A stretch of 64,000 nucleotides of DNA from positions 61,256-125,255 of the forward strand of contig CADBQG010000007.1 of the NCBI GenBank assembly GCA_902796805.1. Direction: 5' to 3'. The notes under the pieces are model-generated. The model had not been told where the DNA came from, did no database searches, and worked only from the letters and a program-made list of their open reading frames with translations. This document shows, piece after piece, positions 7,731 to 59,260 of this stretch; position 1 is the stretch's first letter, and each line of letters starts with the position of its first letter. The stretch comes from an uncultured Bacteroidota bacterium. Its GTDB lineage: Bacteria > Bacteroidota > Bacteroidia > Bacteroidales > WCHB1-69. The position numbers were made by a program, and so were the translations under genes.

Positions 7731-7753
7731 GTTTTCATCAAACAACCTCTCAA

Positions 7754-9121
7754 ATGAAAAAGTTTATAGAGACAATCAAGAATATATTCAGGATTGAGGA
7801 TTTGAGAAAGCGGATCCTCTACACCTTGTTTATAATCCTGATATACCGTTTCGGCGCCCACGTGGTGCTTCCCGGCATCAACCCCGGCGCTCTCTCGGCG
7901 TTCACCAGCGCGGCGCAGAAGGGTCTTCTCGGAATGTTGGACCTCTTCTCGGGCGGCGCGTTCTCGAACGCCTCCATATTCGCGCTCGGCATAATGCCCT
8001 ACATCACGGCTTCCATCGTGGTGCAGCTTCTGACCCTCGCGGTGCCATACTTCCAGCGCCTTGCGAAAGAGGGTGAGAGCGGCCGCACCAAGATCAACCA
8101 GATCACGCGCTACCTCACCGTAGGCGTGCTTGCAGTGCAGGCTCCCGCCTACATCGCGCAGCTCACCGGCCAGTTCCCCGGAGCGATAGCGCCCTCTATG
8201 CTCGAGCACCGCGTGTTCGGCTTCTCGGCGTTCGCGATATGCGCGTTCATACTCTTGATTTCATCAACACTGTTCATAATGTGGCTCGGCGAGCGCATAA
8301 CCGACAACGGCATAGGCAACGGTATCTCCATCATAATCATGATAGGCATCATCGCGCGCCTGCCTTTCGCCCTCAAGGCTGAGTTCACCGCCCGCATCAC
8401 CGAGATGAACGGCGGCCCCATCATCTTCATCCTCGAGCTCGTGCTCATGATGATCATAATAGGCCTCTGTATCCTCCTCGTGCAGGGCACGCGCCGCATA
8501 CCGGTTCAATACGCGAAGCGCGTGGTCGGCAACAAGCAGTACGGCGGTGTCCGCAACTACCTCCCTCTCAAGGTGAACGCGGCCGGCGTTATGCCGATAA
8601 TCTTCGCCCAGGCTCTGATGTTCATACCGCTCACGTTCGTAAACATCTCGCAGGAGACAACATCGGGCTTCTGGAACAGCTTCATCGACTACAACAGGCT
8701 CGGATACAACATTGTGTTCTTCCTGATGATTATAGCGTTCACTTATTTCTACACCGCCATAACCATCAATCCGCAGCAGATTGCAGAGGACCTCAAGAAG
8801 AACAACGGTTTCATACCGGGCGTGAAGCCAGGGAAGCACACTGCGGAGTACATCGACAGGATAATGTCGAGGATCACACTCCCAGGCTCAATATTCCTCG
8901 GCATCGTGGCCGTTCTGCCGGCTGTGGTGCGCATGTTCGGCGTGAACCAGCAGTTCGCCCAGTTCTTCGGCGGCACGTCGCTGCTGATCATGGTGGGCGT
9001 TGTACTCGACACGCTCCAGCAGATTGAAAGCCATCTCCTGATGCGCCATTACGACGGCCTCACCAAGTCGGGCCGCATCAAGGGCCGCACCGGTGGCGGA
9101 ATATACGGAAACCAGATGTAG
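7754..9121 (+). CDS. secY: Preprotein translocase subunit SecY
   Basis: 10-TM profile, conserved N-terminus ...DLRKRILYTLFIILIYRFGAHVVLPGIN, synteny. Confidence 0.97.
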   Translation: MKKFIETIKNIFRIEDLRKRILYTLFIILIYRFGAHVVLPGINPGALSAFTSAAQKGLLGMLDLFSGGAFSNASIFALGIMPYITASIVVQLLTLAVPYFQRLAKEGESGRTKINQITRYLTVGVLAVQAPAYIAQLTGQFPGAIAPSMLEHRVFGFSAFAICAFILLISSTLFIMWLGERITDNGIGNGISIIIMIGIIARLPFALKAEFTARITEMNGGPIIFILELVLMMIIIGLCILLVQGTRRIPVQYAKRVVGNKQYGGVRNYLPLKVNAAGVMPIIFAQALMFIPLTFVNISQETTSGFWNSFIDYNRLGYNIVFFLMIIAFTYFYTAITINPQQIAEDLKKNNGFIPGVKPGKHTAEYIDRIMSRITLPGSIFLGIVAVLPAVVRMFGVNQQFAQFFGGTSLLIMVGVVLDTLQQIESHLLMRHYDGLTKSGRIKGRTGGGIYGNQM

Positions 9122-9134
9122 TGTATAGTCAGGA

Positions 9135-9959
9135 ATGCCCAGGATAGCCAAATATACGGACGAGGATTTCGCCAGGTTGCGCGAGAGCGCCAACGTGGTG
9201 GCGGTCACGCTGGCGGAAGTCGCCAAGGTGATTGCACCCGGTGTGCCGCTCACATACCTCGACCAGATCGGCGAGCAGTGCATCCGCGACCATCATGCGG
9301 TGCCGGCCTGCAAGGGTTACATGGGCTATCCGGCTGCGCTCTGCCTCTCGGTCAACGACGTGGTGGTTCACGGGATACCCTATCCCGACATATACCTGCG
9401 CGACGGCGACATAGTCTCTGTCGACTGCGTGGCTAAGCTTAACGGGTATCACGGCGACTTCTGCTACACCTTCGAGGTTGGGCAGGTGGCCGAGGAGACG
9501 AAACTTCTGCTCAAGCGCACCAAGGAGGCCCTTTACAAGGCTGTGGAGGTTGCCAAGGAAGGCCACGTGTTCGCCGAGATCGGCGCCGCTGTGGAGCGGT
9601 ATGTCTCCCAGTTTGGATATTCCGTGCCCGCTGAGTTTACAGGCCACGGTATCGGAGTGGGAATGCACGAGGAACCATCCATCCCAAACTATTCGGTGAG
9701 ACAGTTCAACAACCTTTCAAGGACAAGGATCGAGAAGGGCATGTCGTTCTGCATCGAGCCGATGGTGAAGATAGGGAAGGGACAAAACGGCAGCAAGTTC
9801 AGGAGTCGTTTCGACAACGACGAATGGACGGCGCGGACTCCCGACGGGAACCCGGCGGCTCATTTCGAGCATCAGTTGATCGTAACCGACAAAGGCACAG
9901 AGGTCATATCATCCTACAAGCTGTTGGGTGAAGTGATTGGAACGGAAGAATTGTACTAA
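9135..9959 (+). CDS. map: Type I methionine aminopeptidase
   Basis: Motifs VVHGIP, DIVSVD and HEEPSIPNY. Sits between secY and infA. Confidence 0.95.
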   Translation: MPRIAKYTDEDFARLRESANVVAVTLAEVAKVIAPGVPLTYLDQIGEQCIRDHHAVPACKGYMGYPAALCLSVNDVVVHGIPYPDIYLRDGDIVSVDCVAKLNGYHGDFCYTFEVGQVAEETKLLLKRTKEALYKAVEVAKEGHVFAEIGAAVERYVSQFGYSVPAEFTGHGIGVGMHEEPSIPNYSVRQFNNLSRTRIEKGMSFCIEPMVKIGKGQNGSKFRSRFDNDEWTARTPDGNPAAHFEHQLIVTDKGTEVISSYKLLGEVIGTEELY

Positions 9960-9970
9960 AATAAAGCAAT

Positions 9971-10192
9971 ATGGCAAAACAATCATCAGTTGACATCGAC
10001 GGGGAAGTGATAGAGGCTTTGGGCAACGGGCAGTACCGTGTTAGACTCGAGAGCGGTCATGAGATCCTCGCTCACCTGTCGGGCAAAATGAGAATGCACT
10101 ACATCAAGATCATACCCGGCGACAGGGTGCAGGTGGCAATGTCTCCCTACGACCTGACAAAGGGAAGGATTACATACAGGCACAAGAATTAA
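9971..10192 (+). CDS. infA: Translation initiation factor IF-1
   Basis: [53 protein letters not shown]. Confidence 0.97.
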
Positions 10193-10227
10193 AACCAAGA
10201 AAGAATAACAATCAAAAGCAAATAAAA

Positions 10228-10344
10228 ATGAAAGTAAGAGCATCTGTAAAGAAGAGATCGGAAGATTGCATTGTGGTTAGGCGCCGCGGTGTGGTTTATG
10301 TGATAAACAAGAAAAACCCCAAGTTCAAGCAACGCCAGGGATAA
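10228..10344 (+). CDS. rpmJ: 50S ribosomal protein L36
   Basis: 38-aa ORF translated by hand: [38 protein letters not shown]. Confidence 0.95.
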
Positions 10345-10384
10345 TTTCAGAACAAATAAAATAAATAACAAAAGATAAAGTAAT

Positions 10385-10759
10385 ATGGCAAGAATTGCAG
10401 GTATTGATTTACCTAAGAACAAACACGGTGAGATCGGCTTGACCTACATCTACGGAATCGGAAGGAGTACTGCCCAGAAGATTCTCACAAAGGCCGGCAT
10501 AAGCTGGAGTAAGAAGGTAAATGAATGGAACGACGACGAATTGGCCTTGATTCGTGGATTGGTGAATGAGTTGAAGGTTGAAGGCCCCCTCAGATCTGAG
10601 GAACAGATGAACATTAAGCGCTTGATGGATATTGGCTGCTACAGGGGCATCCGCCACCGTCTCGGCCTGCCTGTGCGCGGCCAGAGCACGAAGAACAACT
10701 CCCGCACGCGCAAGGGACGCAAGAAGACAGTTGCCAACAAGAAGAAGGCGACCAAGTAA
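10385..10759 (+). CDS. rpsM: 30S ribosomal protein S13
   Basis: [26 protein letters not shown]. Confidence 0.97.
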
Positions 10760-10788
10760 TTAAATAACCATAAGAAGTAAAGAGCAAT

Positions 10789-11178
10789 ATGGCAAAAAAT
10801 ACAAAATCAACGAAAAAGAGAGTTGTTAGGATAGAGGCCTCGGGCAAGGCTTTCATCTACGCTTCGTTCAACAACGTTATAGTTTCCCTGACGAACAACG
10901 ACGGACAGGTTATATCATGGTCGTCGGCGGGCAAGATGGGATACAGAGGCTCCAAGAAGAACACCCCATACGCGGCACAGATGGTGGCGCAGGACTGCGC
11001 GAAGGTTGCCTACGACCTCGGTCTGCGCAGGGTGAAGGTTTATGTGAAAGGTCCCGGACAAGGACGCGAGTCGGCGATACGCTCGATCAACACCACAGGC
11101 ATCATCGTGGAGGAGATCACAGACGTTACCCCGTTGCCGCACAACGGCTGCCGTCCTCCAAAACACAGAAGAGTATAA
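10789..11178 (+). CDS. rpsK: 30S ribosomal protein S11
   Basis: ...[24 protein letters not shown]...TPYAAQ. Confidence 0.97.
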
Positions 11179-11213
11179 TTCATCCAAGTTTCAACATATA
11201 AAAAGCAAATATT

Positions 11214-11819
11214 ATGGCAAGATATACCGGACCAAAGACCAAAATCGCAAGAAAGTTCAAGGAGCCCATCTTCGGGCCCGACAAATACCTTGAAAGGAAG
11301 AACTACGCTCCCGGCCAGCATGGGCAGTCGCGCCGCCGCACAAAACTCTCCGAGTACGGAATGCAGCTCCAGGAGAAGCAGAAGGCAAAGTACACCTACG
11401 GCATCCTCGAGCGCCAGTTCCGCAAGCTGTTCCACATGGCTTCCCGCAAGAAGGGCATGACAGGCCAGAACCTCATGCAGCTCATCGAGTCGCGCCTCGA
11501 CAACGTGGTGTTCCGCCTCGGCATCGCTCCGTCGCGCGCAGCAGCCCGCCAGCTCGTGTCGCACCGCCACATCAGCGTGAACGGCCAGATCACCAACATA
11601 CCGTCGTTCCTGCTCCGCCCCGGCGACATCGTGGAGGTGCGCGAACGCTCCAAGACCCTCGAGGTGATTGAGAACTCGCTCAGCGGCAAGGCCATGAACT
11701 ATGGCTGGCTCGAGTGGGACGGAGGCCTCAAGGTGGGCAAGTTCATGCAGTACCCGCAAAGAGAGGAGATACCCGAGACCATCAACGAGCAGGCAATAGT
11801 CGAGTTGTACTCCAAGTAA
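11214..11819 (+). CDS. rpsD: 30S ribosomal protein S4
   Basis: [21 protein letters not shown]... with S4 RNA-binding domain. Confidence 0.97.
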
Positions 11820-11880
11820 TAATCAGTGATTGACGATTGGTGTTTGGTGATTCGAGAATAGTTGGAATAAGAATTTTCAG

Positions 11881-11929
11881 TTCACAGTTCACAATTCACA
11901 AATCACAATTCTCAATTCACAATTCACAA
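11881..11929 (+). repeat. Seven tandem heptads, consensus TTCACAA, in the rpsD-rpoA spacer
   Basis: ttcacag ttcacaa ttcacaa atcacaa ttctcaa ttcacaa ttcacaa. The array ends 17 nt before the rpoA ATG. The upstream half of the spacer (11823-11875) carries the complementary GTGATT-type motif. Confidence 0.85.
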
Positions 11930-11946
11930 AACCAAAAAAGAAGAAA

Positions 11947-12942
11947 ATGGCAATTTTAACATTTCAAAAACCCGATAAAGTCATAATGAACGAGGCCGAC
12001 GATTTTCACGGCTTGTTTGAATTTCGTCCTCTGCAGCAGGGTTTCGGCGTTACCGTCGGCAACGCACTTCGCCGCGTGCTGCTCTCTTCATTGGAAGGCT
12101 ATGCCATCACATCCTTGAAAATCGAGGGCGTGTCGCAGGAATTCTCGTCAATTCCCGGAGTCATGGAGGATGTCATTGATATCGTCCTCAACCTCAAGCA
12201 GGTGCGCCTAAAGAACAAGGTTGAAGGCACCATGTCCGAGAAGGTCAACATCGTCATCAGCGGCCAGGACACTTTCCACGCCGGCGACATGAACCGTTAT
12301 CTCAACTATTTCCAGGTGCTCAACCCCGATCTGCTCATCTGCCGAATGGAGCCTAACGTCACCCTGAACATGGAGATCACCATCGACAAGGGCAGGGGCT
12401 ACGTTCCGGTGGAGGACAACCGCCAGCTCCACGACGGCATCGATGTCATTGCCATCGACTCTACACACACGCCGATACGCAATGTTAAATACACCATTGA
12501 GCCCTACCGCGTTGAGCAAAAGACCGACTTTGAGAAGCTTGTGCTTGAGATAGAGACCGACGGCTCCATCCATCCCAAGGATGCTATCCAGGAGGCGGCC
12601 AAGATACTTATCCAGCACTTCATCCTTCTTTCAGACGAGAACATTGCCCTCGACTCGGCAGAGCAGTCATCTTCTACAGAGACCCTCGACGACAACGAGA
12701 AGAACATACGCCAGGTGCTTCAGGCAAAGCTCATCGACATGGATCTTTCGGTGCGCGCGCTCAACTGCCTCAAGTCGGCAGAGCTCGAGACCCTCGGCGA
12801 TCTCGTGGCATTCCACAAGGCAGACCTTCTCAAATTCCGCAATTTCGGAAAGAAGTCGCTCGCTGAGCTCGAAGAGCTTGTGCGCAGCAAGGGCCTGGAA
12901 TTTGGCATGAACGTTCAAAAGTATAATATAGATAACGAATAA
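11947..12942 (+). CDS. rpoA: DNA-directed RNA polymerase subunit alpha
   Basis: N-terminal and C-terminal (..[21 protein letters not shown]..) domain signatures, synteny. Confidence 0.97.
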
Positions 12943-22496: not shown

Positions 22497-22647
22497 TGGT
22501 ATTTAGAACTGAGAATTAAGAATAATGAACGTGGATGGAATAATGAATAGTGAATGGTTGATGGTGACGAAATCTTTTGTCGAGGTGCTGATTGCCACAA
22601 AAAAACACAGGCTGTTTTTGTTGGGATTGCAGTTACAAAAAAAAGTG

Positions 22648-22655
22648 TATTTTTG
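22648..22655 (+). promoter_or_regulatory. Bacteroidota -7 promoter box (TATTTTTG)
   Basis: 27 nt upstream of the acpP ATG. Confidence 0.45.
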
Positions 22656-22681
22656 CCGCCTAATTTTAAAAATTGAAGATT

Positions 22682-22924
22682 ATGTCAGAAGTTTTAGAAA
22701 AAGTTCAATCCATCATTGCTGACAAGTTGAGCATGGATGTCTCGGAGATCACGCCGGAGAAGAGTTTCACCAACGACCTTGGCGCCGACTCTCTCGACAC
22801 GGTGGAGTTGATTATGGAATTTGAGAATGCTTTCGGCATCAAGTTCCCGGAAGAAGACGCTGAAGAGATCTCAACAGTGGGTGACGCTGTTGCTTATATT
22901 GAAAATCTTCTCAAATCAAAGTAA
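22682..22924 (+). CDS. acpP: Acyl carrier protein
   Basis: [16 protein letters not shown]...[16 protein letters not shown], which carries the phosphopantetheine-attachment DSLD motif. Confidence 0.96.
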
Positions 22925-22948
22925 AAACCTTTACAATAAACGTTTGTG

Positions 22949-24202
22949 ATGAACCTCAAACGCGTAGTTGTAACGGGGATAGGCGCCATAACGCCTGTCG
23001 GAAATAATGTGACCGAGTATTGGGGCAGCCTCATGAAGGGCGTTTCCGGTGCCGGTCATATTTCTTATTTTAACACCGAAAAATTCAAGACCAAATTCGC
23101 CTGTGAGCTCAAGGGCTACAACCCGGCCGACCATTTCGACTCGAAGGAGCTATCCAAACTTGACCGCTGCGCGCAGTATGCTCTGGTAGCGACAGAAGAG
23201 GCACTGGAGGATTCCGGCATCGACCTCTCGGCGATGGAAAGCGACAGGGTAGGGGTTATATACGGCACCGGCATCGGCGGCCTCATGTCTTCGGAACAGG
23301 CGGTGCAGATGTATATGGAGCATGACAAGACGCCGAGGTTCAGTCCGTTCCACCTTTTGCGCGTGCTGCCGAACACGGTTTCCGGGAGCATAGCGCTGAA
23401 ATACGGCTTTGCCGGCCCGAACTATGTGACATCATCGGCGTGTGCGTCATCGGCGAACGCAATACTTGACGCCTGCTACGCAGTGGCCTTCGGCTGCGCC
23501 GACGTCATGCTCACCGGAGGCACAGAGGCGTGCATAATAGAACTCGCTATCGGAGGGTTCAACGCCATGCGCGCCCTCTCGACAAACAACGGCAACCCTC
23601 AGTCGGCGAGCCGCCCCTTCGACAAGTCGCGCGACGGCTTTGTGATGGGCGAGGGAGCGGCCACACTCGTGCTCGAGAGCCTTGATTCGGCCCTTGCGCG
23701 CGGCGCGAAGATTTATGCTGAACTCATCGGGGTCGGGATGTCGGCAGACTCATTCCACATAGCAGCCCCGGAGCCCAACGGGAAGGCAGCGGTGCTCTCA
23801 ATGGAGAAAGCCCTGAAATCGGCCGGCGTGCTTCCCGAGCAGGTCGACTATATAAACACCCACGGCACCTCAACGCCCCTCGGCGACCTGTCGGAATGCC
23901 GTGCCATTGCCAAGGTTTTCGGCAGCCATGCCCCGAAGATGGCCATAAACTCCACGAAGTCTATGATAGGCCACCTACTCGGCGCCGGTCCCGCGGTAGA
24001 GAGCGTTGCCATTTTCTGCTCTATGCGCGACAGTGTGGTACATCCGACCATCAACCTCGACGAACTCGACCCTTCAATTCCCCGCGATTGGAACTTCGTG
24101 TCGGGTGAGGCGCAGCGGCGTGACGTGAACGTGGCGCTTTCAAACTCGTTCGGCTTCGGCGGGCACAACGTGTCGCTTATATACAAGAAATTTGTCGGTT
24201 AG
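22949..24202 (+). CDS. fabF: Beta-ketoacyl-ACP synthase II
   Basis: Active-site context SSACASSANA, HGTSTPLGD and GHLLGAGPAVE. Directly downstream of acpP. Confidence 0.93.
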   Translation: MNLKRVVVTGIGAITPVGNNVTEYWGSLMKGVSGAGHISYFNTEKFKTKFACELKGYNPADHFDSKELSKLDRCAQYALVATEEALEDSGIDLSAMESDRVGVIYGTGIGGLMSSEQAVQMYMEHDKTPRFSPFHLLRVLPNTVSGSIALKYGFAGPNYVTSSACASSANAILDACYAVAFGCADVMLTGGTEACIIELAIGGFNAMRALSTNNGNPQSASRPFDKSRDGFVMGEGAATLVLESLDSALARGAKIYAELIGVGMSADSFHIAAPEPNGKAAVLSMEKALKSAGVLPEQVDYINTHGTSTPLGDLSECRAIAKVFGSHAPKMAINSTKSMIGHLLGAGPAVESVAIFCSMRDSVVHPTINLDELDPSIPRDWNFVSGEAQRRDVNVALSNSFGFGGHNVSLIYKKFVG

Positions 24203-24895
24203 ATGCTCACCCGCGACAAGCAGATACGTTCTTACTTCAGGAACATATTCGGATTCAGGATTAGCAACGTGGAGTTATACAAGACTGCTCTTCTCCACAA
24301 GTCTACCAACCAGTCCACAACAATAGGGTCGCGTAACAACAACGAGCGTCTCGAATTCCTCGGCGACGCCGTGCTTGGCGCTATAGTGGCCGACTTCCTC
24401 TGCCACAAGTATCCCACCGAATCGGAGGGCGTTCTCACGCAGATGCGGTCAAAAATGGTTAACCGGCAGCGCCTGAACGAGCTGGCGAGGAAAATAGGAC
24501 TGCCTGAAATGGTATCCGCCCACGGACTGTCGTCGGCGCAGAACGTGAGCGGAAACGCTTTCGAGGCCGTTGTAGGAGCCATATATATGGACAAAGGATA
24601 CAGAAAAACGGCCAGGATAATAATAAAGAGCATCTTCAATGTGCACTACGACATTGATGAGATATTCGCAGAAGACCGCGACTATAAGAGCAGGCTCATA
24701 ATCTGGGGTCAGCACAACCGCAAGCATGTCTCTTTCGTCCACGAGCTGTTTCACGAGGGACGACAGGAACTTTTCAGGGCAATTGCAGAGGTTGACGACA
24801 TTGTGGTTGCCGAGGGCGTCAGCACTTCGGTGAAGAGGGCGGAGCAACGCGCGGCCGAGATTGCACTGTCTATGCTCGATGTGGCTGAATTTTGA
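24203..24895 (+). CDS. rnc: Ribonuclease III
   Basis: Signature NERLEFLGDAVL plus a C-terminal dsRBD. The ATG abuts the fabF stop. Confidence 0.93.
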   Translation: MLTRDKQIRSYFRNIFGFRISNVELYKTALLHKSTNQSTTIGSRNNNERLEFLGDAVLGAIVADFLCHKYPTESEGVLTQMRSKMVNRQRLNELARKIGLPEMVSAHGLSSAQNVSGNAFEAVVGAIYMDKGYRKTARIIIKSIFNVHYDIDEIFAEDRDYKSRLIIWGQHNRKHVSFVHELFHEGRQELFRAIAEVDDIVVAEGVSTSVKRAEQRAAEIALSMLDVAEF

Positions 24896-51216: not shown

Positions 51217-51744
51217 TCATGGCAGAATATACCCATTTTGGTCCTTTCTCAACGAGCCTTCTGCCACCATCTCCGACAGGGTGCGGCTGAGAGAAGGGCG
51301 GGCTACACCCATCTGCTCGGCCGCGTTCGCCACATTGGTGATTGTCTTGTGCTGTCCAAGGTAGTTCAGTACTCGGTTGCGGAACCCCATGACGGCGAAC
51401 GAGTTAAGCTTGTTCGTCAGAAATCGAGTCTTGTCTGAGATGATCTGCAGGAAAGTGTTGAGTACATCTGAATGACGTTGCATGAAAGTGAGGAACGCGT
51501 GGCGGTTCACATACAGCAACGAAGAATTGCCCACCGACCTGACCTCAACAGGCACTCTCCTGTCTGAGGCGTAAAGAAATGCAGGGGCGAGCACGAAAGG
51601 CGCGTCGATGTACTCCACCACAATCACGCGCCCCTCGTCGCTGCCCATTAGTGTTACAACCCGCCCGGATATAAGAAGCATAAGCGCGTCAATGCCAAGC
51701 TTGCCGGTTTCCTGACATTGGAAACAAAACATCTTTTCATTCAT
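51217..51744 (-). CDS. Crp/Fnr family regulator with truncated sensor domain and an Hcp-like N-terminal tag (probable deletion fusion)
   Basis: C-terminal HTH (ITNVANAAEQMGVARPSLSRTLSEM) and partial cNMP-type beta-roll. The first residues MNEKMFCFQCQETGK resemble the Hcp N-terminus. Confidence 0.7.
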   Translation of the reverse strand: MNEKMFCFQCQETGKLGIDALMLLISGRVVTLMGSDEGRVIVVEYIDAPFVLAPAFLYASDRRVPVEVRSVGNSSLLYVNRHAFLTFMQRHSDVLNTFLQIISDKTRFLTNKLNSFAVMGFRNRVLNYLGQHKTITNVANAAEQMGVARPSLSRTLSEMVAEGSLRKDQNGYILP

Positions 51745-51931: not shown

Positions 51932-51939
51932 TATCTTTG
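51932..51939 (+). promoter_or_regulatory. Bacteroidota -7 promoter box (TATCTTTG)
   Basis: 35 nt upstream of the ATG at 51974. Confidence 0.45.
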
Positions 51940-51973
51940 CAACCGTTTTTTTTGCTAAAGACTCTTTGCCAAG

Positions 51974-53503
51974 ATGAAAGATGGATTTTTTTCGTTTTCA
52001 GAGATTGAGGAGATAGTTTTTGAAGGGAAAAAGCTGTCACCGGAAGACCTTCCAATCGAGAAGGTTGCAGAGTGTTATGATTTTCTCAAAGACTTCTCCA
52101 CCGATAAAATTATATACGGCATAAACACAGGTTTCGGGCCAATGGCTCAATGGCGCGTTGAAGACAAAGACCTCAAGGCCTTGCAATACAATATTATACG
52201 CAGTCATTCAACCGGTGCGGGCGAACCTCTTCCCGACAAGTACGTGAAAGCTGCAATGGTGGCCAGGCTTGGCACTTTCCTGCAGGCCAGGTCGGGTGTG
52301 CACACCGACCTCGTGGAGCTTCTCGTGGAGATGATAAACGAAGAGATTTTCCCGATGATACCCCAGCACGGCAGTGTTGGCGCAAGCGGCGACCTCGTGC
52401 AGCTCGCGCATCTCGCCCTTGCGATGATTGGTGAGGGCGTGGTGCATTTCAAGGGCGAATGGCGTCAGGCAAGGGATGTGTTCGCGGAATGCGGACTGAA
52501 TCCTTTGGAGATACACATCCGTGAAGGCCTCTCGATAACCAACGGCACGAGCGTGATGACGGGAATATCGATAGTGAACCAGCACGAAGCTGAAAAGCTT
52601 CTCAACCTCGCAGTGTTGGCAAGCGTGATGATGAACGAAATTGCCGGCTCATACGACGACTTGATGTCGGAACAGCTCAACGAGGTGCGCCGCCACTACG
52701 GCCAGACGAAGATAGCGGAGGCGATGCGCGTGGTGGCCGAGGGAAGCAGAAGGCTTCAAAAACGCGAACATGCGCTCTACGACGGAAGCCACATTGAGAA
52801 GACTTTCGGGCACAAGGTGCAGGCGTACTATTCGCTGCGCTGCGTGCCGCAGATTCTCGGCCCCGTGCTTGAAACCCTCGACAATTGCAGACGGGTGATA
52901 GAGGAGGAGGTGAACTCGGCCTGCGACAACCCCATTGTCGACCCCGTGTCGAGAAACGTGTACCACGGAGGCAATTTCCACGGTGACTACATCTCCATCG
53001 AGCAGGACAAGGTCAAGATGGCGATGGTGCGGCTTGTCATGACTATGGAGAGGCAGCTGAACTATCTCTTCCACGACAAAATCAACGGGATTCTGCCGCC
53101 GTTCCTCAACTTGGGGAAGCTCGGGCTGAACTACGGTATGCAGGCCTGCCAGTTCACAGCCACGTCGACCACAGCCGAATGCCAGACACTCGCCATGCCG
53201 AACTACGTGCACAGCATACCTAACAACAACGACAACCAGGACATCGTGAGTATGGGTACGAACACCGCCCTTCTAACCAAGCGCGTTATCGACAACGCCT
53301 GGCAGGTGATGGCCATCCATTTCATCGCGCTTGCGCAGGCAGTGGACTGCCTCGACATAGACGGCTCGCTGTCTGTTGCGACCAAAGACGTCTATGAAAA
53401 AGTCCGCGGTATATGTCCGAAATTCGTCGAAGACACCCCTTTTTATGAGGAGATACGCAATGTGGAATCATTTTTAAGACAATATAGAGTAAAGGCAATA
53501 TGA
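51974..53503 (+). CDS. MIO-dependent aromatic amino acid/histidine ammonia-lyase (HAL/PAL/TAL family)
   Basis: YGINTGFG, and the MIO-forming GSVGASGDLVQLAH (Ala-Ser-Gly triad). 509 aa. Confidence 0.88.
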   Translation: MKDGFFSFSEIEEIVFEGKKLSPEDLPIEKVAECYDFLKDFSTDKIIYGINTGFGPMAQWRVEDKDLKALQYNIIRSHSTGAGEPLPDKYVKAAMVARLGTFLQARSGVHTDLVELLVEMINEEIFPMIPQHGSVGASGDLVQLAHLALAMIGEGVVHFKGEWRQARDVFAECGLNPLEIHIREGLSITNGTSVMTGISIVNQHEAEKLLNLAVLASVMMNEIAGSYDDLMSEQLNEVRRHYGQTKIAEAMRVVAEGSRRLQKREHALYDGSHIEKTFGHKVQAYYSLRCVPQILGPVLETLDNCRRVIEEEVNSACDNPIVDPVSRNVYHGGNFHGDYISIEQDKVKMAMVRLVMTMERQLNYLFHDKINGILPPFLNLGKLGLNYGMQACQFTATSTTAECQTLAMPNYVHSIPNNNDNQDIVSMGTNTALLTKRVIDNAWQVMAIHFIALAQAVDCLDIDGSLSVATKDVYEKVRGICPKFVEDTPFYEEIRNVESFLRQYRVKAI

Positions 53504-54228
53504 AATATGCGCTTATAACGGGCGGTTCCCGAGGAATAGGACGCGCCGTGGCCATCAGGCTGGCCAAAGACGGGTTCTCAGTGATAGTGAACTACGTGAG
53601 CAATGACCAGGCCGCGAAGGAAACCAAGCGGCTCGTTGAAGAGGGTGGGGGAATCTGCGAACTCATGAAGTTCGACATCGCCGACGGACAAGCTGTTGAG
53701 AAAGCCCTCCGTCAATGGGAGGACGAGCACCCGAACGAGTTTATATCTGTGCTGGTGAACAATGCCGGGACTCGCCGCGACAACCTCATGATGATGATGA
53801 GCGAGGACGACTGGCGCAGTGTCATCGACACGCCCCTCAACGGTTTCTTTTTCATTACGAAAAGACTGATAAAACCGATGCTGTCGCATCGTGAGGGCAG
53901 AGTTGTCAACATGGCCTCCCTGTCAGGACTGAAGGGAGTTCCAGGCCAGACGAACTACAGCGCGGCCAAGGCGGCAATCATAGGAGCCACCAAAGCACTT
54001 GCCCAGGAGGTGGCCAAGAGGAAAGTTACAGTGAATGCCGTGGCCCCTGGCTTCATCGCCACCGACATGACCAAGGATCTCGACGAGGAGACTCTAAAGA
54101 AGATGATACCGGCCGCGAGGTTCGGCACGCCCGACGAAGTGGCCGCTGCGGTCTCGTTCCTGGCAAGTCCCGAATCGTCGTACATCACCGGACAGGTCAT
54201 CCAAGTGAACGGTGGACTTTATTCATAG
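53500..54228 (+). CDS. SDR family 3-oxoacyl-ACP reductase (FabG-like)
   Basis: TGGSRGIGRA cofactor motif, NNAG, and YSAAKAA catalytic motif. ATGA overlap with the ammonia-lyase stop. Confidence 0.9.
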   Translation: MKYALITGGSRGIGRAVAIRLAKDGFSVIVNYVSNDQAAKETKRLVEEGGGICELMKFDIADGQAVEKALRQWEDEHPNEFISVLVNNAGTRRDNLMMMMSEDDWRSVIDTPLNGFFFITKRLIKPMLSHREGRVVNMASLSGLKGVPGQTNYSAAKAAIIGATKALAQEVAKRKVTVNAVAPGFIATDMTKDLDEETLKKMIPAARFGTPDEVAAAVSFLASPESSYITGQVIQVNGGLYS

Positions 54229-54298
54229 CCGGGCAGGTTAGTGTTGTGGGTGATTTGTTGATGTAGAGGAATTTTAGAAGAAAATCAGAAACAGATAT

Positions 54299-55531
54299 AT
54301 GAACAACAGAAGGGTTGTAATCACCGGAATGGGGATATGGTCGTGCATCGGGACATCGAAAGACGAGGTGCTGGAGTCTTTGAGAATCGGCAGATCAGGA
54401 ATAGGGCGTGAAGACATACGTTTGGGATATGGCTACCAGTCTGACTTGACGGGGATAGTGCCAGACCCCGATTTGAAGCCGCTGCTCCACCGCAGGCTTC
54501 GCACGGGCATGTCGCAGGAGGCAGAGTACTCATATATGGCGGCGCGCGAGGCCTTCGCACAAGCGTTGGTTGACGAGAAGTTCCTTGCTGAGCGTGAAGT
54601 CGGCATAATCTTCGGCAACGACTCGTCTGCGAAGCCGGTAATCGAGGCCGAAAAGTTGATGTCGGAGAAGCGCGACTCGGCGCTGCTCGGCTCGGGGCTG
54701 ATATTCCAGTCGATGAATTCAACGGTGAACATGAACCTTAGCAGCATCTTCGGCCTGCGTGGGATAAACTTCACTGTTAGTGCGGCCTGTGCCAGTGGCA
54801 GCCATTCGGTGGGTCTGGGGTTTTTGATGATAAAGCAGGGTCTTCAGGACGTGGTGCTCTGCGGCGGTGCGCAGGAGGTGAACCATTTTTCCATGTTCAC
54901 GTTCGACGCACTGGGTGCCTTCTCAAAGCGTATGTCTGAGCCAGAAAGAGCCTCGAGACCCTTCGACCGCGACCGCGACGGGCTCATACCGAGCGGCGGC
55001 GCGGCGGCCTTGGTCCTCGAGGAATACGAGAGCGCAATCCGCCGCGGCGCACCGATACTTGCAGAGGTTACCGGATACGGCTTCTCCTCCAACGGCGGCG
55101 GCATCTCGCAACCCTCCGACGACGGAAGCGTGATCGCCATGAAGAGGGCGCTCGATTCCGCCAACCTGTCGCCAGAAGACATCGACTATATCAACGCCCA
55201 TGCCACAAGCACTCCGCAGGGAGACATGTTCGAAGCCATGGCCCTCGACAGGCTGTTCCACGGAACCCACGCCCTTGTGAGCTCCACGAAAGGCATGACA
55301 GGCCACGAATGCTGGATGGCGGGAGCGAGCGAGATAGTCTATTCCGTTCTTATGATGCAGAACGACTTTGTGGCGCCAAACGTGAACTTCGAGAATCCCG
55401 ACCAGTACTCCGAAAAGCTTAACATCGCCGCGGAAACCACACCATGCAGGCTCAACAATGTGATAAGCAATTCATTCGGCTTCGGAGGCACAAATTCGGC
55501 AATAGTGTTGCAACAAGTTAAAGACAAATAA
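54299..55531 (+). CDS. Beta-ketoacyl synthase (KAS I/II-like, Cys-His-His)
   Basis: VSAACASGSHS (Cys), NAHATSTPQGD (His), TGHECWMAGASE (His), C-terminal SFGFGGTNSAIVL. Confidence 0.88.
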   Translation: MNNRRVVITGMGIWSCIGTSKDEVLESLRIGRSGIGREDIRLGYGYQSDLTGIVPDPDLKPLLHRRLRTGMSQEAEYSYMAAREAFAQALVDEKFLAEREVGIIFGNDSSAKPVIEAEKLMSEKRDSALLGSGLIFQSMNSTVNMNLSSIFGLRGINFTVSAACASGSHSVGLGFLMIKQGLQDVVLCGGAQEVNHFSMFTFDALGAFSKRMSEPERASRPFDRDRDGLIPSGGAAALVLEEYESAIRRGAPILAEVTGYGFSSNGGGISQPSDDGSVIAMKRALDSANLSPEDIDYINAHATSTPQGDMFEAMALDRLFHGTHALVSSTKGMTGHECWMAGASEIVYSVLMMQNDFVAPNVNFENPDQYSEKLNIAAETTPCRLNNVISNSFGFGGTNSAIVLQQVKDK

Positions 55532-55532
55532 T

Positions 55533-56621
55533 ATGAACCTCAGCGAATCACTCAAAGACAGATATTCACGGGATGACATTTCCGCTTACAACGCTCAGTA
55601 CCTTGCGCAGGTCATAGCCTTCGGCCCGGTAATCTTCCAGGTTGCACGCATAATGCTCAAGTGGGGCATTCTGGAAATGATTGCTGACGAACCGCTTACA
55701 ATTGACGAGGTGGCCGGAAGAGCCGGTGTGTCAAAATATGCCGCCAAGTGCCTGCTCGAGTCTTCACTCACAATGTCGATATTGAAGGTGAATCCAGATA
55801 CAGGCAAGTTCTCGCTCTCCAAGACAGGCTTTTTCCTTCTCAATGACAAGTCTACAAGGGTGAACCTCGACTTCAACCACGATGTGAATTATATCGGGCT
55901 TTTCAATCTCGAGGAGTCCCTCAAAGAAGGCAGGCCGGCAGGGCTGAAGCATTTCGGCGACTGGCCCACGGTATATGAAGGGCTGTCGTCGTTGCCCGCC
56001 AAAGTGCAGGACAGCTGGTTTGCCTTCGACCACTACTACAGCGACTGCTCTTTTGAAGAGGCCTTGGAAGTGGTTTTCTCGAAGCCGGTGAGGCATCTCA
56101 TGGATGTGGGAGGCAACACCGGAAGATGGGCCTTGCAGTGTGTTGCGCATGACCCAAAGGTTCAAGTTACCATTGTCGATCTCCCGCAACAACTGCAGAT
56201 GATGCGTCAGCAAACTGCCGGAAAGCCCGGTGCGGAACGCATCCACGGTTATCCTGCCAATCTCCTCAACGACGAGTCAGTGTTCCCTTCAAACGTGCAT
56301 TTCGACGCAATATGGATGAGCCAGTTCCTCGACTGTTTCTCAGAAGAAGAGATAACCGGCATACTGAAGCGCGCTGCCAAAATTATGTCCGAAGACACAA
56401 AACTCTACATCATGGAGACTTTTTGGGACAGGCAGCGTTTCGACACTTCTGCCTTCTGCCTTACACAGATAAGCCTCTATTTCACGGCAATAGCCAACGG
56501 CAACAGCAAGATGTACCACTCCGACGACCTTGTAAGGCTCGTTCAGGAGTCGGGACTGTCGGTTGAGACAATCCACGACAATCTCGGCATGGGACATTCC
56601 ATAATGGTGTGTGCTAAATGA
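55533..56621 (+). CDS. Class I SAM-dependent O-methyltransferase (Methyltransf_2/COMT-like with N-terminal dimerisation-wHTH)
   Basis: SAM motif I LMDVGGNTG, downstream DAIWMSQFLDCF, N-terminal wHTH-like LTIDEVAGRAGVSKYAAKCLLE. Starts 1 nt after the KS stop. Confidence 0.8.
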   Translation: MNLSESLKDRYSRDDISAYNAQYLAQVIAFGPVIFQVARIMLKWGILEMIADEPLTIDEVAGRAGVSKYAAKCLLESSLTMSILKVNPDTGKFSLSKTGFFLLNDKSTRVNLDFNHDVNYIGLFNLEESLKEGRPAGLKHFGDWPTVYEGLSSLPAKVQDSWFAFDHYYSDCSFEEALEVVFSKPVRHLMDVGGNTGRWALQCVAHDPKVQVTIVDLPQQLQMMRQQTAGKPGAERIHGYPANLLNDESVFPSNVHFDAIWMSQFLDCFSEEEITGILKRAAKIMSEDTKLYIMETFWDRQRFDTSAFCLTQISLYFTAIANGNSKMYHSDDLVRLVQESGLSVETIHDNLGMGHSIMVCAK

Positions 56622-56647: not shown

Positions 56648-56655
56648 TATCTTCG
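56648..56655 (+). promoter_or_regulatory. -7 promoter-like box (TATCTTCG, one mismatch)
   Basis: 33 nt upstream of the ATG at 56688. Confidence 0.3.
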
Positions 56656-56687: not shown

Positions 56688-57857
56688 ATGTATCTGAAAA
56701 AGAATGTCTTAAAGAATAAACCGACTATCGTCTCCGCGAGTTTTCACCTTATTATTCTACTTTTTTGCACACAAGCGGCTTTGGCACAAAGCGATACTGT
56801 GTCAGGGAAGGAGATCAAAGAGCGCAGCTGGAAGATCAGCGACTACGTGCAGATTCACGGTTTTGTTGACGCACAGGTCGGCTACAACATTCAGGAAAAG
56901 GCGGACGGGAACATCGACAAGGACTTTGTCTTTACGCTTCGGCGCGCGAGGTTCGAGTTCTGCGGCAGTCCGATTCCCAAGCTTGATTTCCGGTTGCAGG
57001 CCGACATGGCGTATTCGCCGCGACTCCTTGACGCCTGGGTGCGCTACAAGTTCTGCAAGTACATCGCCCTGCAGGTCGGGCAGGTAAAGACACCGTACAC
57101 CATGGACAACTACTATTCACCGTTGGACCTCGAGTTCGTTGAACTGTCGCAGTCGGTGTCGGCACTTGCGGGCTTCAACGATGTGTCAGGAATCGCCGAC
57201 TACGGCAACGGCCTTGAAATCGGTGCGATGATTTCCGGAACCCTTGCCGACTTTGAGAAGGACGGCGAAAGAATTCCCATTTTCAACTACTACGCGGGTG
57301 TCTTCGGCGGCAACGGCATAAACATCCGCAAGGACAACCTCAGCAAGGACTTTTCTGCACGTGTCGACTTCTTCCCGTTTGTGAAGGATCTGCGGCTTTC
57401 AGGTTCTGTGTATATAGGTAACTACTCTCCCAAGAAGGGACTAAATGCGCCGAGGCACAGGTATTCCGGCGGCGTTGAATACCGTGGAGAGCATCTGACG
57501 CTCCGCAGCGAGTACCTGCAAGGCGTTACGGGAGTTTACGACACGCAATCACTTTCGGGCGACTCCATATACCGAATCAATACGCGTGGTCTTTATGCCT
57601 TCGTAGGATACTGGTTCTATGGAGGTTGGGGGAAAAACAGCAGCGTGACGCAGAAAATACGCCCGCTGTTCCGCTACGATTATTATGTCCACGACACCAA
57701 CGTGCCGCATTATTCAAGCAGCCACAACTACTCGTTCGGTCTCGACTGGTGGCCGGAGCGCCACGTGCGCATCCACCTCGACTACACGATAAAGCAACGT
57801 GCGGGGCAAAGAAGCCTCGGCCACTCCATGGCGGCGAAAGTGTCGGTAAGGTTCTGA
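56688..57857 (+). CDS. Porin (OprO/P-like phosphate-selective porin family)
   Basis: Signal peptide. FVFTLRRARFEFCG...DFRLQADM...LLDAWVRYKF pattern typical of Porin_O_P. Ends in F. Confidence 0.65.
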   Translation: MYLKKNVLKNKPTIVSASFHLIILLFCTQAALAQSDTVSGKEIKERSWKISDYVQIHGFVDAQVGYNIQEKADGNIDKDFVFTLRRARFEFCGSPIPKLDFRLQADMAYSPRLLDAWVRYKFCKYIALQVGQVKTPYTMDNYYSPLDLEFVELSQSVSALAGFNDVSGIADYGNGLEIGAMISGTLADFEKDGERIPIFNYYAGVFGGNGINIRKDNLSKDFSARVDFFPFVKDLRLSGSVYIGNYSPKKGLNAPRHRYSGGVEYRGEHLTLRSEYLQGVTGVYDTQSLSGDSIYRINTRGLYAFVGYWFYGGWGKNSSVTQKIRPLFRYDYYVHDTNVPHYSSSHNYSFGLDWWPERHVRIHLDYTIKQRAGQRSLGHSMAAKVSVRF

Positions 57858-58459: not shown

Positions 58460-59260
58460 TTAACATGCCTGTTTTTTAACGCAATAAGTTTCATTTTTCT
58501 TCTCTATTTTAAGAAATTCAAGTAAAGTCTCTTCCGAAAAAAACGCATATTGTTCAAAGTAATCTGTCCAAATTGGCAGCTCTTCCAAATCCCCTCTCAG
58601 AATCTTGTGCGTGCAAAAGACACTTTGAAACAGCCAGTTCATAAAATCAGAGTTTAACAAAGCCACAATATTCTTGTAGGAAATTGGAAATGAAGGCTTC
58701 AAAATAAACAAGTTTGCACTATTTAGTATGTATCTTTGCTCCGTGTCGTATCCAAAAACACTTTCGGGTGCAAATCCCTTGCGAATTGCCTCCATGATGA
58801 AATTTCCTGAACCGCAGCACGGATCGAGAAAAGTCTTGCCACGTGTCCCTGAAATGCCATCCATCATGTCAGCCACAATGTAAGAGGGTGTATAGAAAAC
58901 ACACTCCTTGTTCTTAAACGATTCAGACAGCGACGACTCGTATTTCAAGGCTATTTCCTCGCCGGACAGTTCATTTGATTGTATGTAACCACATATTGTC
59001 TCCGACAATTCAGACTGGTCATGTGAATCCTTGCGAAGTTTGTTTGCCCTGGATTTCAATTTGTTATGAAGTTGTGCGAGTGCAAATGTGTCAACATCGC
59101 TTTGAAGAAGTTTACCATCAACGGTGTTCAGAAGGCCAGAATGTACCCAGTTCCGGATTGTGGCTTGAGATACGGATAGACGTTGCGCCGCCTCTCTTAA
59201 AGTCAGCCCATGTGGTTCAACTGTAAACAATTTCAGTTGTGTCTCTTTCGGTTCAGCCAT
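58460..59260 (-). CDS. HTH domain fused to a truncated N6-adenine DNA methyltransferase-like module (probably decayed)
   Basis: N-terminal MerR/excisionase-type HTH LTLREAAQRLSVSQATIRNWV. FYTP and SAM motif FLDPCCGSGNFIMEA are present. No NPPY/F catalytic motif before a C-terminal LNS...LPI tail. AT-rich. Confidence 0.55.
   Translation of the reverse strand: MAEPKETQLKLFTVEPHGLTLREAAQRLSVSQATIRNWVHSGLLNTVDGKLLQSDVDTFALAQLHNKLKSRANKLRKDSHDQSELSETICGYIQSNELSGEEIALKYESSLSESFKNKECVFYTPSYIVADMMDGISGTRGKTFLDPCCGSGNFIMEAIRKGFAPESVFGYDTEQRYILNSANLFILKPSFPISYKNIVALLNSDFMNWLFQSVFCTHKILRGDLEELPIWTDYFEQYAFFSEETLLEFLKIEKKNETYCVKKQAC

What the first reader, a model, noticed from the sequence alone, without database searches (positions are those of the whole stretch)
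51932..56621. Compact ammonia-lyase / ketoreductase / ketosynthase / O-methyltransferase operon (minimal aryl-polyketide-like cassette)
**Seen in the sequence:**
- Four tightly packed genes follow one TATCTTTG promoter box. The junctions are an ATGA overlap, a 70-nt gap and a 1-nt gap.
- The genes are a MIO-type ammonia-lyase (GASGDL), a FabG-like SDR, a Cys-His-His ketosynthase and a COMT-type O-methyltransferase.
- The housekeeping acpP-fabF pair lies elsewhere in the window (22682-24202), so this ketosynthase is an extra copy.
- No hutU or hutI accompanies the lyase. That argues against histidine catabolism, even though the residues at the position I recall as the substrate-selectivity switch read S-H (IIRSHSTGAG), as in HALs.

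**Established knowledge:** flexirubin and aryl-polyene pathways of Bacteroidota start from a tyrosine ammonia-lyase and use dedicated type-II FAS-like KS/KR enzymes and methyltransferases.

**Inference:**
- This is a stripped-down relative of those pathways. It lacks a dedicated ACP, dehydratase, acyl-CoA/AMP ligase and the DarAB-type genes.
- It may therefore make a short methylated aryl (or urocanate-derived) acyl product on the housekeeping ACP.
- A porin gene with its own promoter follows, and a rearranged Crp/Fnr regulator diverges upstream.
Basis: partly seen in the sequence, partly recalled or inferred. Interest (0 to 1): 0.65.

Follow-up and report, generated by a model that had tools for sequence, protein, structure and literature searches.

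The report
Detached starter operon for aryl-polyene pigment
These four genes are the ordinary starter genes of the well-known flexirubin/aryl-polyene pigment pathway of Bacteroidota; here they sit apart from the rest of the pathway, which in related uncultured rumen and gut bacteria is scattered over several genome sites, so it is most likely elsewhere rather than missing.

Summary
The four genes are real, intact and tightly packed, as described. NCBI's curated models name three of them above their cut-offs:
- FlxA, the flexirubin tyrosine ammonia-lyase
- FlxB, the reductase
- a FlxJ-family methyltransferase

The ketosynthase is FabB-like and orthologous to the one at the flxC position of intact clusters. 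In 72 of 80 Bacteroidales species representatives the methyltransferase is followed directly by the pathway "body" (ACP, acyltransferase, dehydratases, KS/CLF, LolA2, MMPL exporter). That makes this cassette the head of a known cluster, not a minimal pathway.

Only the window's closest relatives carry the head alone. In that clade I found every complementary piece:
- a contiguous but permuted cluster
- bodies that begin at the ACP gene with no methyltransferase upstream
- isolated hydrolase-FlxY pairs
- isolated porin-MMPL/acyltransferase operons

One NCBI MAG appears to hold both a body gene and a head-type reductase.

The S-H "switch" motif is documented for the biochemically verified tyrosine lyase FlxA. 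The methyltransferase probably methylates a ring carbon, not an oxygen. The downstream porin has orthologs directly upstream of the pathway's exporter gene in relatives, so it probably belongs to the system.

Not shown: that this organism's own genome holds the body.

Ordinary biology in an unusual, dispersed layout.

The parts
51932..51939 (+). Bacteroidetes-type -7 promoter box TATCTTTG, 35 nt upstream of the lyase ATG
   Evidence: Sequence read. TAnnTTTG is enriched in the window (41 against 26.7 expected). Function as a promoter is inferred.
51974..53503 (+). flxA-type tyrosine ammonia-lyase (MIO enzyme, 509 aa)
   Evidence: NCBIfam FlxA_rubin_TAL NF053541 scores 838.9 bits (cut-off 700), while HutH TIGR01225 scores 404.9 (cut-off 539). 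GASGDL lies at residue 136. dN/dS against relatives is below 0.1.
53500..54228 (+). flxB-type NADPH 3-ketoacyl-ACP reductase (SDR, 242 aa), overlapping the lyase stop by ATGA
   Evidence: NCBIfam FlxB_rubin_SDR NF053542 scores 400.3 bits (cut-off 340). TGGSRGIG, NNAG, the Ser in NMASLSG and YSAAK are all present.
54299..55531 (+). FabB-like homodimer-type ketosynthase at the flxC position (410 aa, Cys-His-His)
   Evidence: 74% identical to the KS that sits between KR and MT in the intact cluster L010, and only 25-33% identical to the body KSs and to the window's fabF. The best PDB hits are FabB at 289 bits, with the ApeR homologue 4ewg at 219. No NCBIfam equivalog cut-off is reached.
55533..56621 (+). 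FlxJ-family SAM-dependent methyltransferase (362 aa), probably an aromatic ring C-methyltransferase
   Evidence: NCBIfam FlxJ_fam_MTase NF053543 scores 587.9 bits (cut-off 560). PDB 3dp7 scores 499 bits and the next hit is the C-methyltransferase SibL. DVGGNTG lies at residue 191. The chemistry is inferred.
56648..56655 (+). One-mismatch -7-like box TATCTTCG, 33 nt before the porin ATG
   Evidence: Sequence read. There is no exact TAnnTTTG on the + strand in this gap. No terminator-like site follows the MT gene.
56688..57857 (+). Porin_O_P-like outer-membrane beta-barrel (389 aa); probable fifth gene of the system
   Evidence: Pfam PF07396 scores 54.5 bits. Full-length orthologs (61-66% aa) lie 55-62 nt upstream of the MMPL/acyltransferase exporter gene in L103, L107, L117 and L133. 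Membership rests on association only.

Best explanation
The operon at 51974-56621 is the detached initiation ('head') module of a flexirubin-type aryl-polyene (APE) lipid pathway.

**Proposed mechanism**
1. FlxA deaminates L-tyrosine to 4-coumarate. This activity was shown for C. pinensis FlxA and is inferred here by equivalog-level homology.
2. A FlxY ligase, encoded elsewhere, activates the coumarate.
3. The FlxJ-family methyltransferase adds the methionine-derived methyl group to the ring. The timing is unknown.
4. The FabB-like ketosynthase and the FlxB reductase carry out the first condensation/reduction rounds on a dedicated ACP. In this they resemble ApeR/ApeQ of proteobacterial APE systems.
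5. Genes not present in this window then take over. The 'body' (ACP1, LPLAT, ApeP/ApeI dehydratases, KS, KS/CLF, ACP2, EamA, LolA2, GT2) and the 'tail' (MMPL/acyltransferase, FAD oxidoreductase, hydrolase, FlxY) elongate the chain, attach it to a lipid anchor and export it.

In this clade of uncultured rumen and gut Bacteroidales the cluster has been broken into several unlinked mini-operons. The porin gene that follows the methyltransferase here probably belongs to the export part.

**Shown:** gene identities, orthology, conservation, and the fragment architectures in relatives.

**Inferred:** all enzymatic steps, and that this organism's own genome holds the other fragments.
For: **Family assignment and order**
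- The cassette proteins pass the FlxA, FlxB and FlxJ equivalog cut-offs.
- The published C. pinensis cluster also starts flxA (TAL), flxB (KR), flxC (KS) (PMC3992019).

**Intact clusters elsewhere**
- L010/L032 run lyase-KR-KS-(173 aa)-MT-ACP-LPLAT-ApeP-TE-KS-unk-ACP-KS-CLF-EamA-LolA.
- In 72 of 80 GTDB Bacteroidales loci the MT is followed directly by body genes.
- The cultured Segatella paludivivens shows the whole cluster through MMPL/AT, two FAD oxidoreductases, a hydrolase and the ligase.

**The window's clade**
- The head alone occurs only in the window's nearest relatives (L005/L012, L008, L013, L009), each in a different genomic context.
- All four genes are under strong purifying selection, with dN/dS below 0.12.
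- L016 carries MMPL/AT-FAD-OR-hydrolase-FlxY-lyase-KR-KS-MT contiguously (protein accessions MBO7587103-109). Its ligase passes the FlxY equivalog at 682 bits against a cut-off of 520.
- L096 carries MT-body-tail-FlxY...lyase.
- L095, L098, L109 and L112 are bodies that start at ACP1 with no MT upstream and end at MMPL/AT. The L095 LolA passes LolA2_flexi.
- L092 has an isolated hydrolase-FlxY pair.
- L102-L117 have MMPL/AT alone or with the porin.

**Same-genome link**
- The MMPL/AT protein MBR4913050.1 is 97.5% identical to that of L095.
- A head-type KR, MBR4913157.1, is 81% identical to the window's KR.
- The two lie 107 accession numbers apart, which indicates one MAG.
Against: - The window's own genome could not be searched. 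Its lyase is not on record exactly, and the species is absent from the GTDB hits (best MT identity 78%).
- No body, tail or FlxY gene, or remnant of one, lies within 52 kb upstream or 7.4 kb downstream of the cassette.
- The same-MAG link rests on the proximity of accession numbers.
- In the headless bodies only about 2 kb upstream of ACP1 was visible.
- No genome was shown to hold both a physically isolated four-gene head and a body.
- No darA/darB-type genes were seen in any examined flank, so the end product may be an APE lipid rather than true flexirubin.
Confidence: 0.75

Rival explanations
1. Stand-alone minimal pathway. The organism has no APE body. The lyase, KR, KS and MT, perhaps with the porin, use the housekeeping AcpP, FabZ and FAS enzymes to make a short methylated hydroxyphenyl-acyl product.
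For: No dedicated ACP, dehydratase, ligase or exporter lies in 64 kb. The four-gene unit recurs alone in at least four other species and is under purifying selection. Housekeeping acpP-fabF is present.
Against: Without FlxY, 4-coumarate cannot be activated, and relatives keep FlxY either adjacent to the head or as an isolated pair. Every complementary fragment exists in the same clade. One MAG appears to hold both a body gene and a head-type KR. All three named proteins score as equivalogs of enzymes from full clusters.
Confidence: 0.1
2. Evolutionary relic. The body was lost recently in this lineage, and the head operon persists without a current function, or with only the lyase useful (for example, for making 4-coumarate).
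For: The cluster is clearly breaking up in this clade. Some genomes show only KS-MT (L014, L015), MT alone (L017) or MT-LPLAT (L059) at a locus.
Against: All four ORFs are intact with their catalytic motifs. dN/dS is below 0.12 against five relatives while dS is saturated. A consensus promoter box is retained.
Confidence: 0.1
3. Histidine catabolism plus unrelated lipid paralogs. The lyase is HutH, and the three downstream genes are independent fatty-acid genes.
For: The S-H residues in IIRSHSTGAG resemble those of HALs. The KR also passes one FabG equivalog model, at 297.7 bits against a cut-off of 273.
Against: Both HutH models score below their cut-offs (404.9 against 539; 417.6 against 524), whereas FlxA scores 838.9 against 700. 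The HAL-like motif 1 is documented for the verified TAL FlxA, which did not turn over histidine. No hutU or hutI lies in the window. The four genes keep the same order in dozens of genomes, next to APE genes.
Confidence: 0.01

Closest known systems
Flexirubin biosynthesis cluster of Chitinophaga pinensis (flxA-flxY; MIBiG BGC0000839) and Flavobacterium johnsoniae (BGC0000838)
   Same: The opening order flxA (TAL), flxB (KR), flxC (KS) is the same, with a single cluster methyltransferase (FlxJ family). The window proteins pass NCBI's FlxA, FlxB and FlxJ equivalog cut-offs (PMC3992019). The HAL-like motif 1 in the lyase is shared.
   Different: Here the four genes stand alone; ACPs, dehydratases, KS/CLF, LolA2, the exporter and FlxY are not within 64 kb. 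No dialkylresorcinol (darA/darB) genes were seen in any related Bacteroidales locus examined. The product may therefore be an APE lipid rather than a flexirubin ester (inference).
Intact Bacteroidales flexirubin-like clusters, e.g. Segatella paludivivens DSM 17968 (KB890627.1) and Prevotellaceae bacterium KH2P17 (L032)
   Same: Orthologous KR, KS and MT (62-78% aa) and, in L010/L032, lyase (72-73%) sit in the same order at the 5' end of the cluster.
   Different: In those genomes the MT is followed immediately by ACP1-LPLAT-ApeP-TE-KS... and the cluster ends with MMPL/AT, FAD oxidoreductases, hydrolase and FlxY. In the window the MT is followed by a porin and then unrelated genes.
Proteobacterial aryl-polyene system (ApeA-S of E. 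coli, Xenorhabdus, Acinetobacter): ApeQ (KR), ApeR (FabB-like KS), ApeB (MT), ApeH (starter ligase)
   Same: An adjacent KR and FabB-like homodimeric KS pair lies beside a KS/CLF pair. ApeR makes short polyenes and boosts the early rounds (PMC8358021). The window KS is FabB-like and also matches the ApeR homologue 4ewg.
   Different: The starter is 4-hydroxybenzoate loaded by ApeH, not tyrosine-derived coumarate, and no ammonia-lyase is involved. The window KS is closer to true FabB (289 bits) than to ApeR (219 bits). The methyltransferase family also differs.
Histidine ammonia-lyase HutH
   Same: The fold is the same, with the MIO-forming ASG motif and S-H at the 'selectivity switch'.
   Different: The lyase scores below both HutH model cut-offs, has no hutU/hutI neighbours, and is always found next to APE genes in relatives.

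Membership tests
FlxA, flexirubin tyrosine ammonia-lyase (NCBIfam NF053541) | Whole-protein score above the curated equivalog cut-off | tested here: met
   838.9 bits against a cut-off of 700, covering 7-502 of 509 residues.
FlxA, flexirubin tyrosine ammonia-lyase (NCBIfam NF053541) | MIO-forming Ala-Ser-Gly and HAL-like motif 1, as in the characterised FlxA | tested here: met
   GASGDL lies at residue 136 and IIRSHSTGAG at 74. The HAL-like motif 1 of FlxA is reported in PMC3992019. I did not align the window protein directly with Cpin_1853.
FlxA, flexirubin tyrosine ammonia-lyase (NCBIfam NF053541) | Preference for L-tyrosine over phenylalanine and histidine | not testable with these tools
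   Needs an enzyme assay.
FlxB, flexirubin SDR reductase (NF053542) | Score above the equivalog cut-off, plus the SDR catalytic Ser-Tyr-Lys and the NADPH-binding motif | tested here: met
   400.3 bits against a cut-off of 340. TGGSRGIG, NNAG, NMASLSG and YSAAK are present.
FlxJ-family methyltransferase (NF053543) | Score above the equivalog cut-off, plus the SAM-binding motif | tested here: met
   587.9 bits against a cut-off of 560. DVGGNTG lies at residue 191.
   The Methyltransf_2 fold is present (42.7 bits). However, the nearest characterised structure is the C-methyltransferase SibL. Flexirubin's ring methyl replaces a ring hydrogen. C-methylation is therefore more likely (inference).
FlxC/ApeR-like early-round ketosynthase | FabB-like KS with a Cys-His-His triad, encoded next to the pathway KR and distinct from the KS/CLF pair | tested here: met
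   Cys lies in ACASGS (163), with His in HATST (301) and GHECW (335). The best PDB hits are FabB. The KS is 74% identical to the KS at the same position in the intact cluster L010, and 25-33% identical to the body KSs. No curated FlxC model exists to test against.
Complete flexirubin/aryl-polyene gene cluster | Dedicated ACPs, KS/CLF pair, ApeI/ApeP dehydratases, LPLAT, LolA2 and MMPL exporter adjacent to the starter genes | tested here: not met
   None of these lie in the 64-kb window by tblastn or profile HMMs. They are present next to the orthologs in 72 of 80 related loci.
Complete flexirubin/aryl-polyene gene cluster | The same components present somewhere in the same genome | not testable with these tools
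   The window's genome is not in the collections. Support is indirect and comes from clade relatives.
True flexirubin (polyene esterified to a dialkylresorcinol) | darA/darB dialkylresorcinol genes | tested here: inconclusive
   No FabH-like or DarB-like Pfam families appear among the genes listed for loci L001-L011 and L092-L097. Only flanks of 10 kb or less were seen, and no specific search was run.
Histidine ammonia-lyase HutH (TIGR01225 / NF006871) | Score above the cut-off, plus the hutU/hutI context | tested here: not met
   404.9 against 539.15 and 417.6 against 524. No hut genes lie in the window.

The most novel reading that the evidence does not exclude
In this organism the APE body is truly absent. 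The conserved lyase-KR-KS-MT operon, plus the porin and a FlxY encoded elsewhere, would then be a self-sufficient mini-pathway that borrows the housekeeping AcpP, FabZ and FAS enzymes to make a short ring-methylated hydroxyphenyl-alkenoyl lipid or acid. That would be a new small aryl metabolite of rumen and gut Bacteroidales.
Probability: 0.1. Interest if true: 0.6.

Novelty: new member of a known kind. Interest (0 to 1): 0.25.

Why it matters
The biology itself is ordinary: flexirubin-type aryl-polyene genes are among the most widespread biosynthetic genes in Bacteroidota.

The practical lesson is that one clade of uncultured rumen and gut Bacteroidales has scattered the pathway over several small operons: head, body, exporter with porin, and hydrolase-FlxY. 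Cluster-based miners such as antiSMASH or BiG-SCAPE will under-call or mislabel it there. A lone 'histidine ammonia-lyase + FabG + FabF + methyltransferase' should be read as FlxA/B/C/J.

The recurring link between a Porin_O_P-like barrel and the MMPL/acyltransferase exporter gene suggests an outer-membrane component of APE-lipid export that could be tested.

Tried and rejected
- **Exact look-up of the window lyase:** not on record. The nearest sequence is 99% identical, on a 6-kb Logan contig.
- **One scan for head and body together:** The tool took both of its patterns from the MT part, so only MT loci came back. That still gave a useful survey of 80 species.
- **Linking fragments to one genome through NCBI accession numbers:** this yielded one pair (MBR4913050 / MBR4913157). 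The MAGs of L009, L015 and L016 gave nothing beyond their own loci.
- **Matching 'longest contig' lengths between hit tables:** the only suggestion is that P0249 (MMPL/AT) and P0006 (lyase) share a 32,691-bp contig. I did not verify it.
- **Sigma-70 promoter and terminator scan:** uninformative for a Bacteroidetes genome, with counts no higher than in shuffles.
- **Remnants of body or tail genes in the window:** a relaxed tblastn found none.
- **Rejected readings:** HutH/histidine catabolism, and the idea that the upstream Crp-like gene regulates the operon. That gene is an N-terminally truncated HcpR-like chimera and is not conserved next to the cassette in relatives.
- **Not done:** structure prediction and fold search; sequence-level assignments were already decisive.

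Full report
**Observation.**
- Four + strand ORFs lie at 51974-53503, 53500-54228, 54299-55531 and 55533-56621.
- Their junctions are exactly as described: an ATGA overlap, a 70-nt gap and a 1-nt gap.
- A TATCTTTG box sits 35 nt upstream of the first ATG. The motif class TAnnTTTG is enriched in the window, with 41 matches against 26.7 expected.
- Pfam confirms an aromatic amino-acid lyase, an SDR/KR, a two-domain ketosynthase and a Dimerisation2/Methyltransf_2 methyltransferase.
- The catalytic motifs are intact.
- The window's acpP (22673-22924) and fabF (22946-24202) pass their equivalog cut-offs, so the cassette KS is a second, different KS (32% identity).
- Pfam annotation of about 45 window genes found no hut genes and no further polyketide or fatty-acid genes.

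**What the genes are.**
- NCBI's curated equivalog models name the lyase FlxA, the flexirubin tyrosine ammonia-lyase (838.9 bits, cut-off 700). They name the SDR FlxB (400.3, cut-off 340) and the methyltransferase FlxJ-family (587.9, cut-off 560).
- Both HutH models score below their cut-offs.
- Schöner et al. (PMC3992019) describe the C. pinensis cluster as starting flxA (TAL), flxB (KR), flxC (KS). They also report that FlxA's 'motif 1' looks HAL-like, although the enzyme is a 1000-fold tyrosine-selective lyase with no activity on histidine.
- The KS reaches no curated cut-off. It is FabB-like and 74% identical to the KS at the same position in an intact cluster, against 25-33% to the other cluster KSs.
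- This mirrors the FabB-like ApeR next to the reductase ApeQ in proteobacterial APE clusters, where ApeR speeds the early elongation rounds (PMC8358021).
- The methyltransferase's closest structure is the uncharacterised 3dp7. The next is SibL, an aromatic C-methyltransferase.
- Labelling studies show that the flexirubin ring methyl comes from methionine and replaces a ring hydrogen. Ring C-methylation is therefore the likelier chemistry (inference).

**Context in other genomes.**
- Homologs of the lyase at 70-81% identity are abundant in uncultured Bacteroidales.
- Context look-ups showed three layouts:
  - the intact order lyase-KR-KS-(173 aa)-MT-ACP-LPLAT-ApeP-TE-KS-unk-ACP-KS-CLF-EamA-LolA (L010);
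  - lyase-MT-body (L001-3 and L011);
  - the four-gene head alone in unrelated surroundings (L004/5, L008 and L009).
- A scan of one genome per GTDB species returned 80 loci around FlxJ-type methyltransferases. In 72 of them the MT is followed directly by body genes.
- Heads or head fragments without a body occur only in the loci most similar to the window: L012, L013, L014, L015, L016, L017 and L020.
- Profile HMMs built from these loci found no body genes in the window or in the isolated-head loci.
- Against five such relatives, all four window genes show dN of 0.11-0.26, saturated dS and dN/dS below 0.12. They are being maintained.

**Where the rest of the pathway is.** The key locus is L016 (MAG RGIG9679), whose head proteins are 70-79% identical to the window's.
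- Directly upstream of its lyase lie an MMPL/acyltransferase fusion, a FAD oxidoreductase, an alpha/beta hydrolase and an AMP ligase.
- The ligase passes the FlxY equivalog at 682 bits against a cut-off of 520.
- The cultured Segatella paludivivens shows that MMPL/AT, FAD oxidoreductases, hydrolase and ligase are the canonical 3' end of the cluster.
- In L016, therefore, the head simply follows the tail. The consecutive accessions MBO7587103-109 agree.

Homologs of the L016 MMPL/AT form a distinct clade at 67-84% identity, well separated from Prevotella at about 50%. Within that clade:
- L096 carries MT-body-tail-FlxY...lyase on one 372-kb contig.
- L095 (310-kb contig) and the rumen contigs L098, L109 and L112 carry ACP1-LPLAT-ApeP-KS-unk-ACP2-KS-CLF-EamA-LolA-GT2-MMPL/AT. 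They have no MT in front of ACP1 and no tail or head within 10 kb downstream. The L095 LolA passes LolA2_flexi.
- L092 has a hydrolase-FlxY pair among housekeeping genes.
- Several contigs have MMPL/AT alone.

The break-points are complementary: the window's operon ends with the MT, and these bodies begin with the ACP gene that normally follows it.

An NCBI MAG carries an MMPL/AT (MBR4913050.1) that is 97.5% identical to that of L095. It also carries a head-type KR (MBR4913157.1, 81% identical to the window's) only 107 accession numbers away. This indicates that one genome holds both.

**The porin.**
- The gene after the MT (56688-57857, Porin_O_P) has full-length orthologs at 61-66% aa identity in L103, L107, L117 and L133. 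Each lies 55-62 nt upstream of MMPL/AT on the same strand.
- In L103 the unit porin-MMPL/AT-FAD-OR-LolA sits between dnaB/spoU and unrelated genes.
- The same porin thus neighbours two different fragments of the pathway in different species. That argues it belongs to the system, plausibly in outer-membrane export (inference).
- In the window it is preceded by a one-mismatch -7 box and by no terminator-like hairpin.

**Limits.**
- I could not search the window's own genome.
- In the headless bodies only about 2 kb upstream of ACP1 was visible.
- The same-MAG argument depends on accession numbering.
- No dialkylresorcinol genes were seen, so 'flexirubin-type APE lipid' is safer than 'flexirubin'.
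- All enzymatic roles are by homology.

**Verdict.**
- This is a known pathway's initiation operon in a lineage where the cluster is dispersed.
- It is a new member of a known kind and of modest interest.

Noticed in passing
window 51217-51744 (- strand): The divergent 'Crp/Fnr' gene is truncated or chimeric. It aligns to Crp/HcpR-type regulators only from its residue 18, which matches their residues 40-70 (PDB 1o5l, 9day, 5v30). Its first 15 residues, MNEKMFCFQCQETGK, resemble the N-terminus of hybrid-cluster protein Hcp (from memory). It looks like an hcp-hcpR deletion fusion and is not conserved next to the cassette in relatives.
   Followed up: partly
window 56688-57857; L103:8779-9942, L107:5181-6344, L117:4473-5636, L133:4895-6013: Orthologs of the Porin_O_P-like barrel downstream of the methyltransferase sit immediately upstream of the MMPL/acyltransferase exporter gene in four rumen contigs. 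This suggests an outer-membrane partner in aryl-polyene lipid export.
   Followed up: partly
L018-L024, L029, L036, L047, L048 and others (including Prevotella sp. KH2C16 and Segatella paludivivens DSM 17968): Many Prevotellaceae clusters start KR-KS-(173 aa)-MT-body with no ammonia-lyase within 10 kb upstream. Either the lyase is elsewhere or a different aryl starter is used.
   Followed up: no
L001-L003: 6825-9918: In a common gut species, shikimate-pathway genes (3-dehydroquinate synthase and a dehydroquinase/EPSP-synthase fusion) lie directly upstream of the lyase-MT-body cluster. This hints at a coupled aromatic precursor supply.
   Followed up: no
L059: 151-5613 and 10001-11998; window 7266-12942: MAG STD2_230 has an MT-LPLAT pair alone, right after homologs of the window's rplO-secY-map-...-rpoA block (45-77% aa). 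This is another fragment type of the dispersed pathway.
   Followed up: partly
L108: 203-5309; window 22627-24465: In one rumen contig the MMPL/acyltransferase gene is followed directly by housekeeping acpP-fabF (72% nt identity to the window's pair).
   Followed up: no
L080 (JAMPAI010000073.1, 3.4 kb): A contig binned as 'Ruminococcus flavefaciens' carries Bacteroidales-type KR-MT-ACP-LPLAT genes. This is probably binning contamination.
   Followed up: no
L008:7342-8532; L013:7555-8745: In two relatives an MFS transporter gene is inserted between the KR and KS of the head operon.
   Followed up: no
window, whole: The exact octamer TATCTTTG recurs 15-150 nt upstream of many gene starts (for example 15751, 28658, 35485, 50469(-), 51932). 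This fits a strong lineage-specific -7 promoter consensus.
   Followed up: partly
window 58460-59260 (- strand): A 266-aa ORF has an HTH_17 domain and only the C-terminal TaqI_C specificity domain of a type II DNA methyltransferase or restriction enzyme. It is likely a fragment.
   Followed up: no
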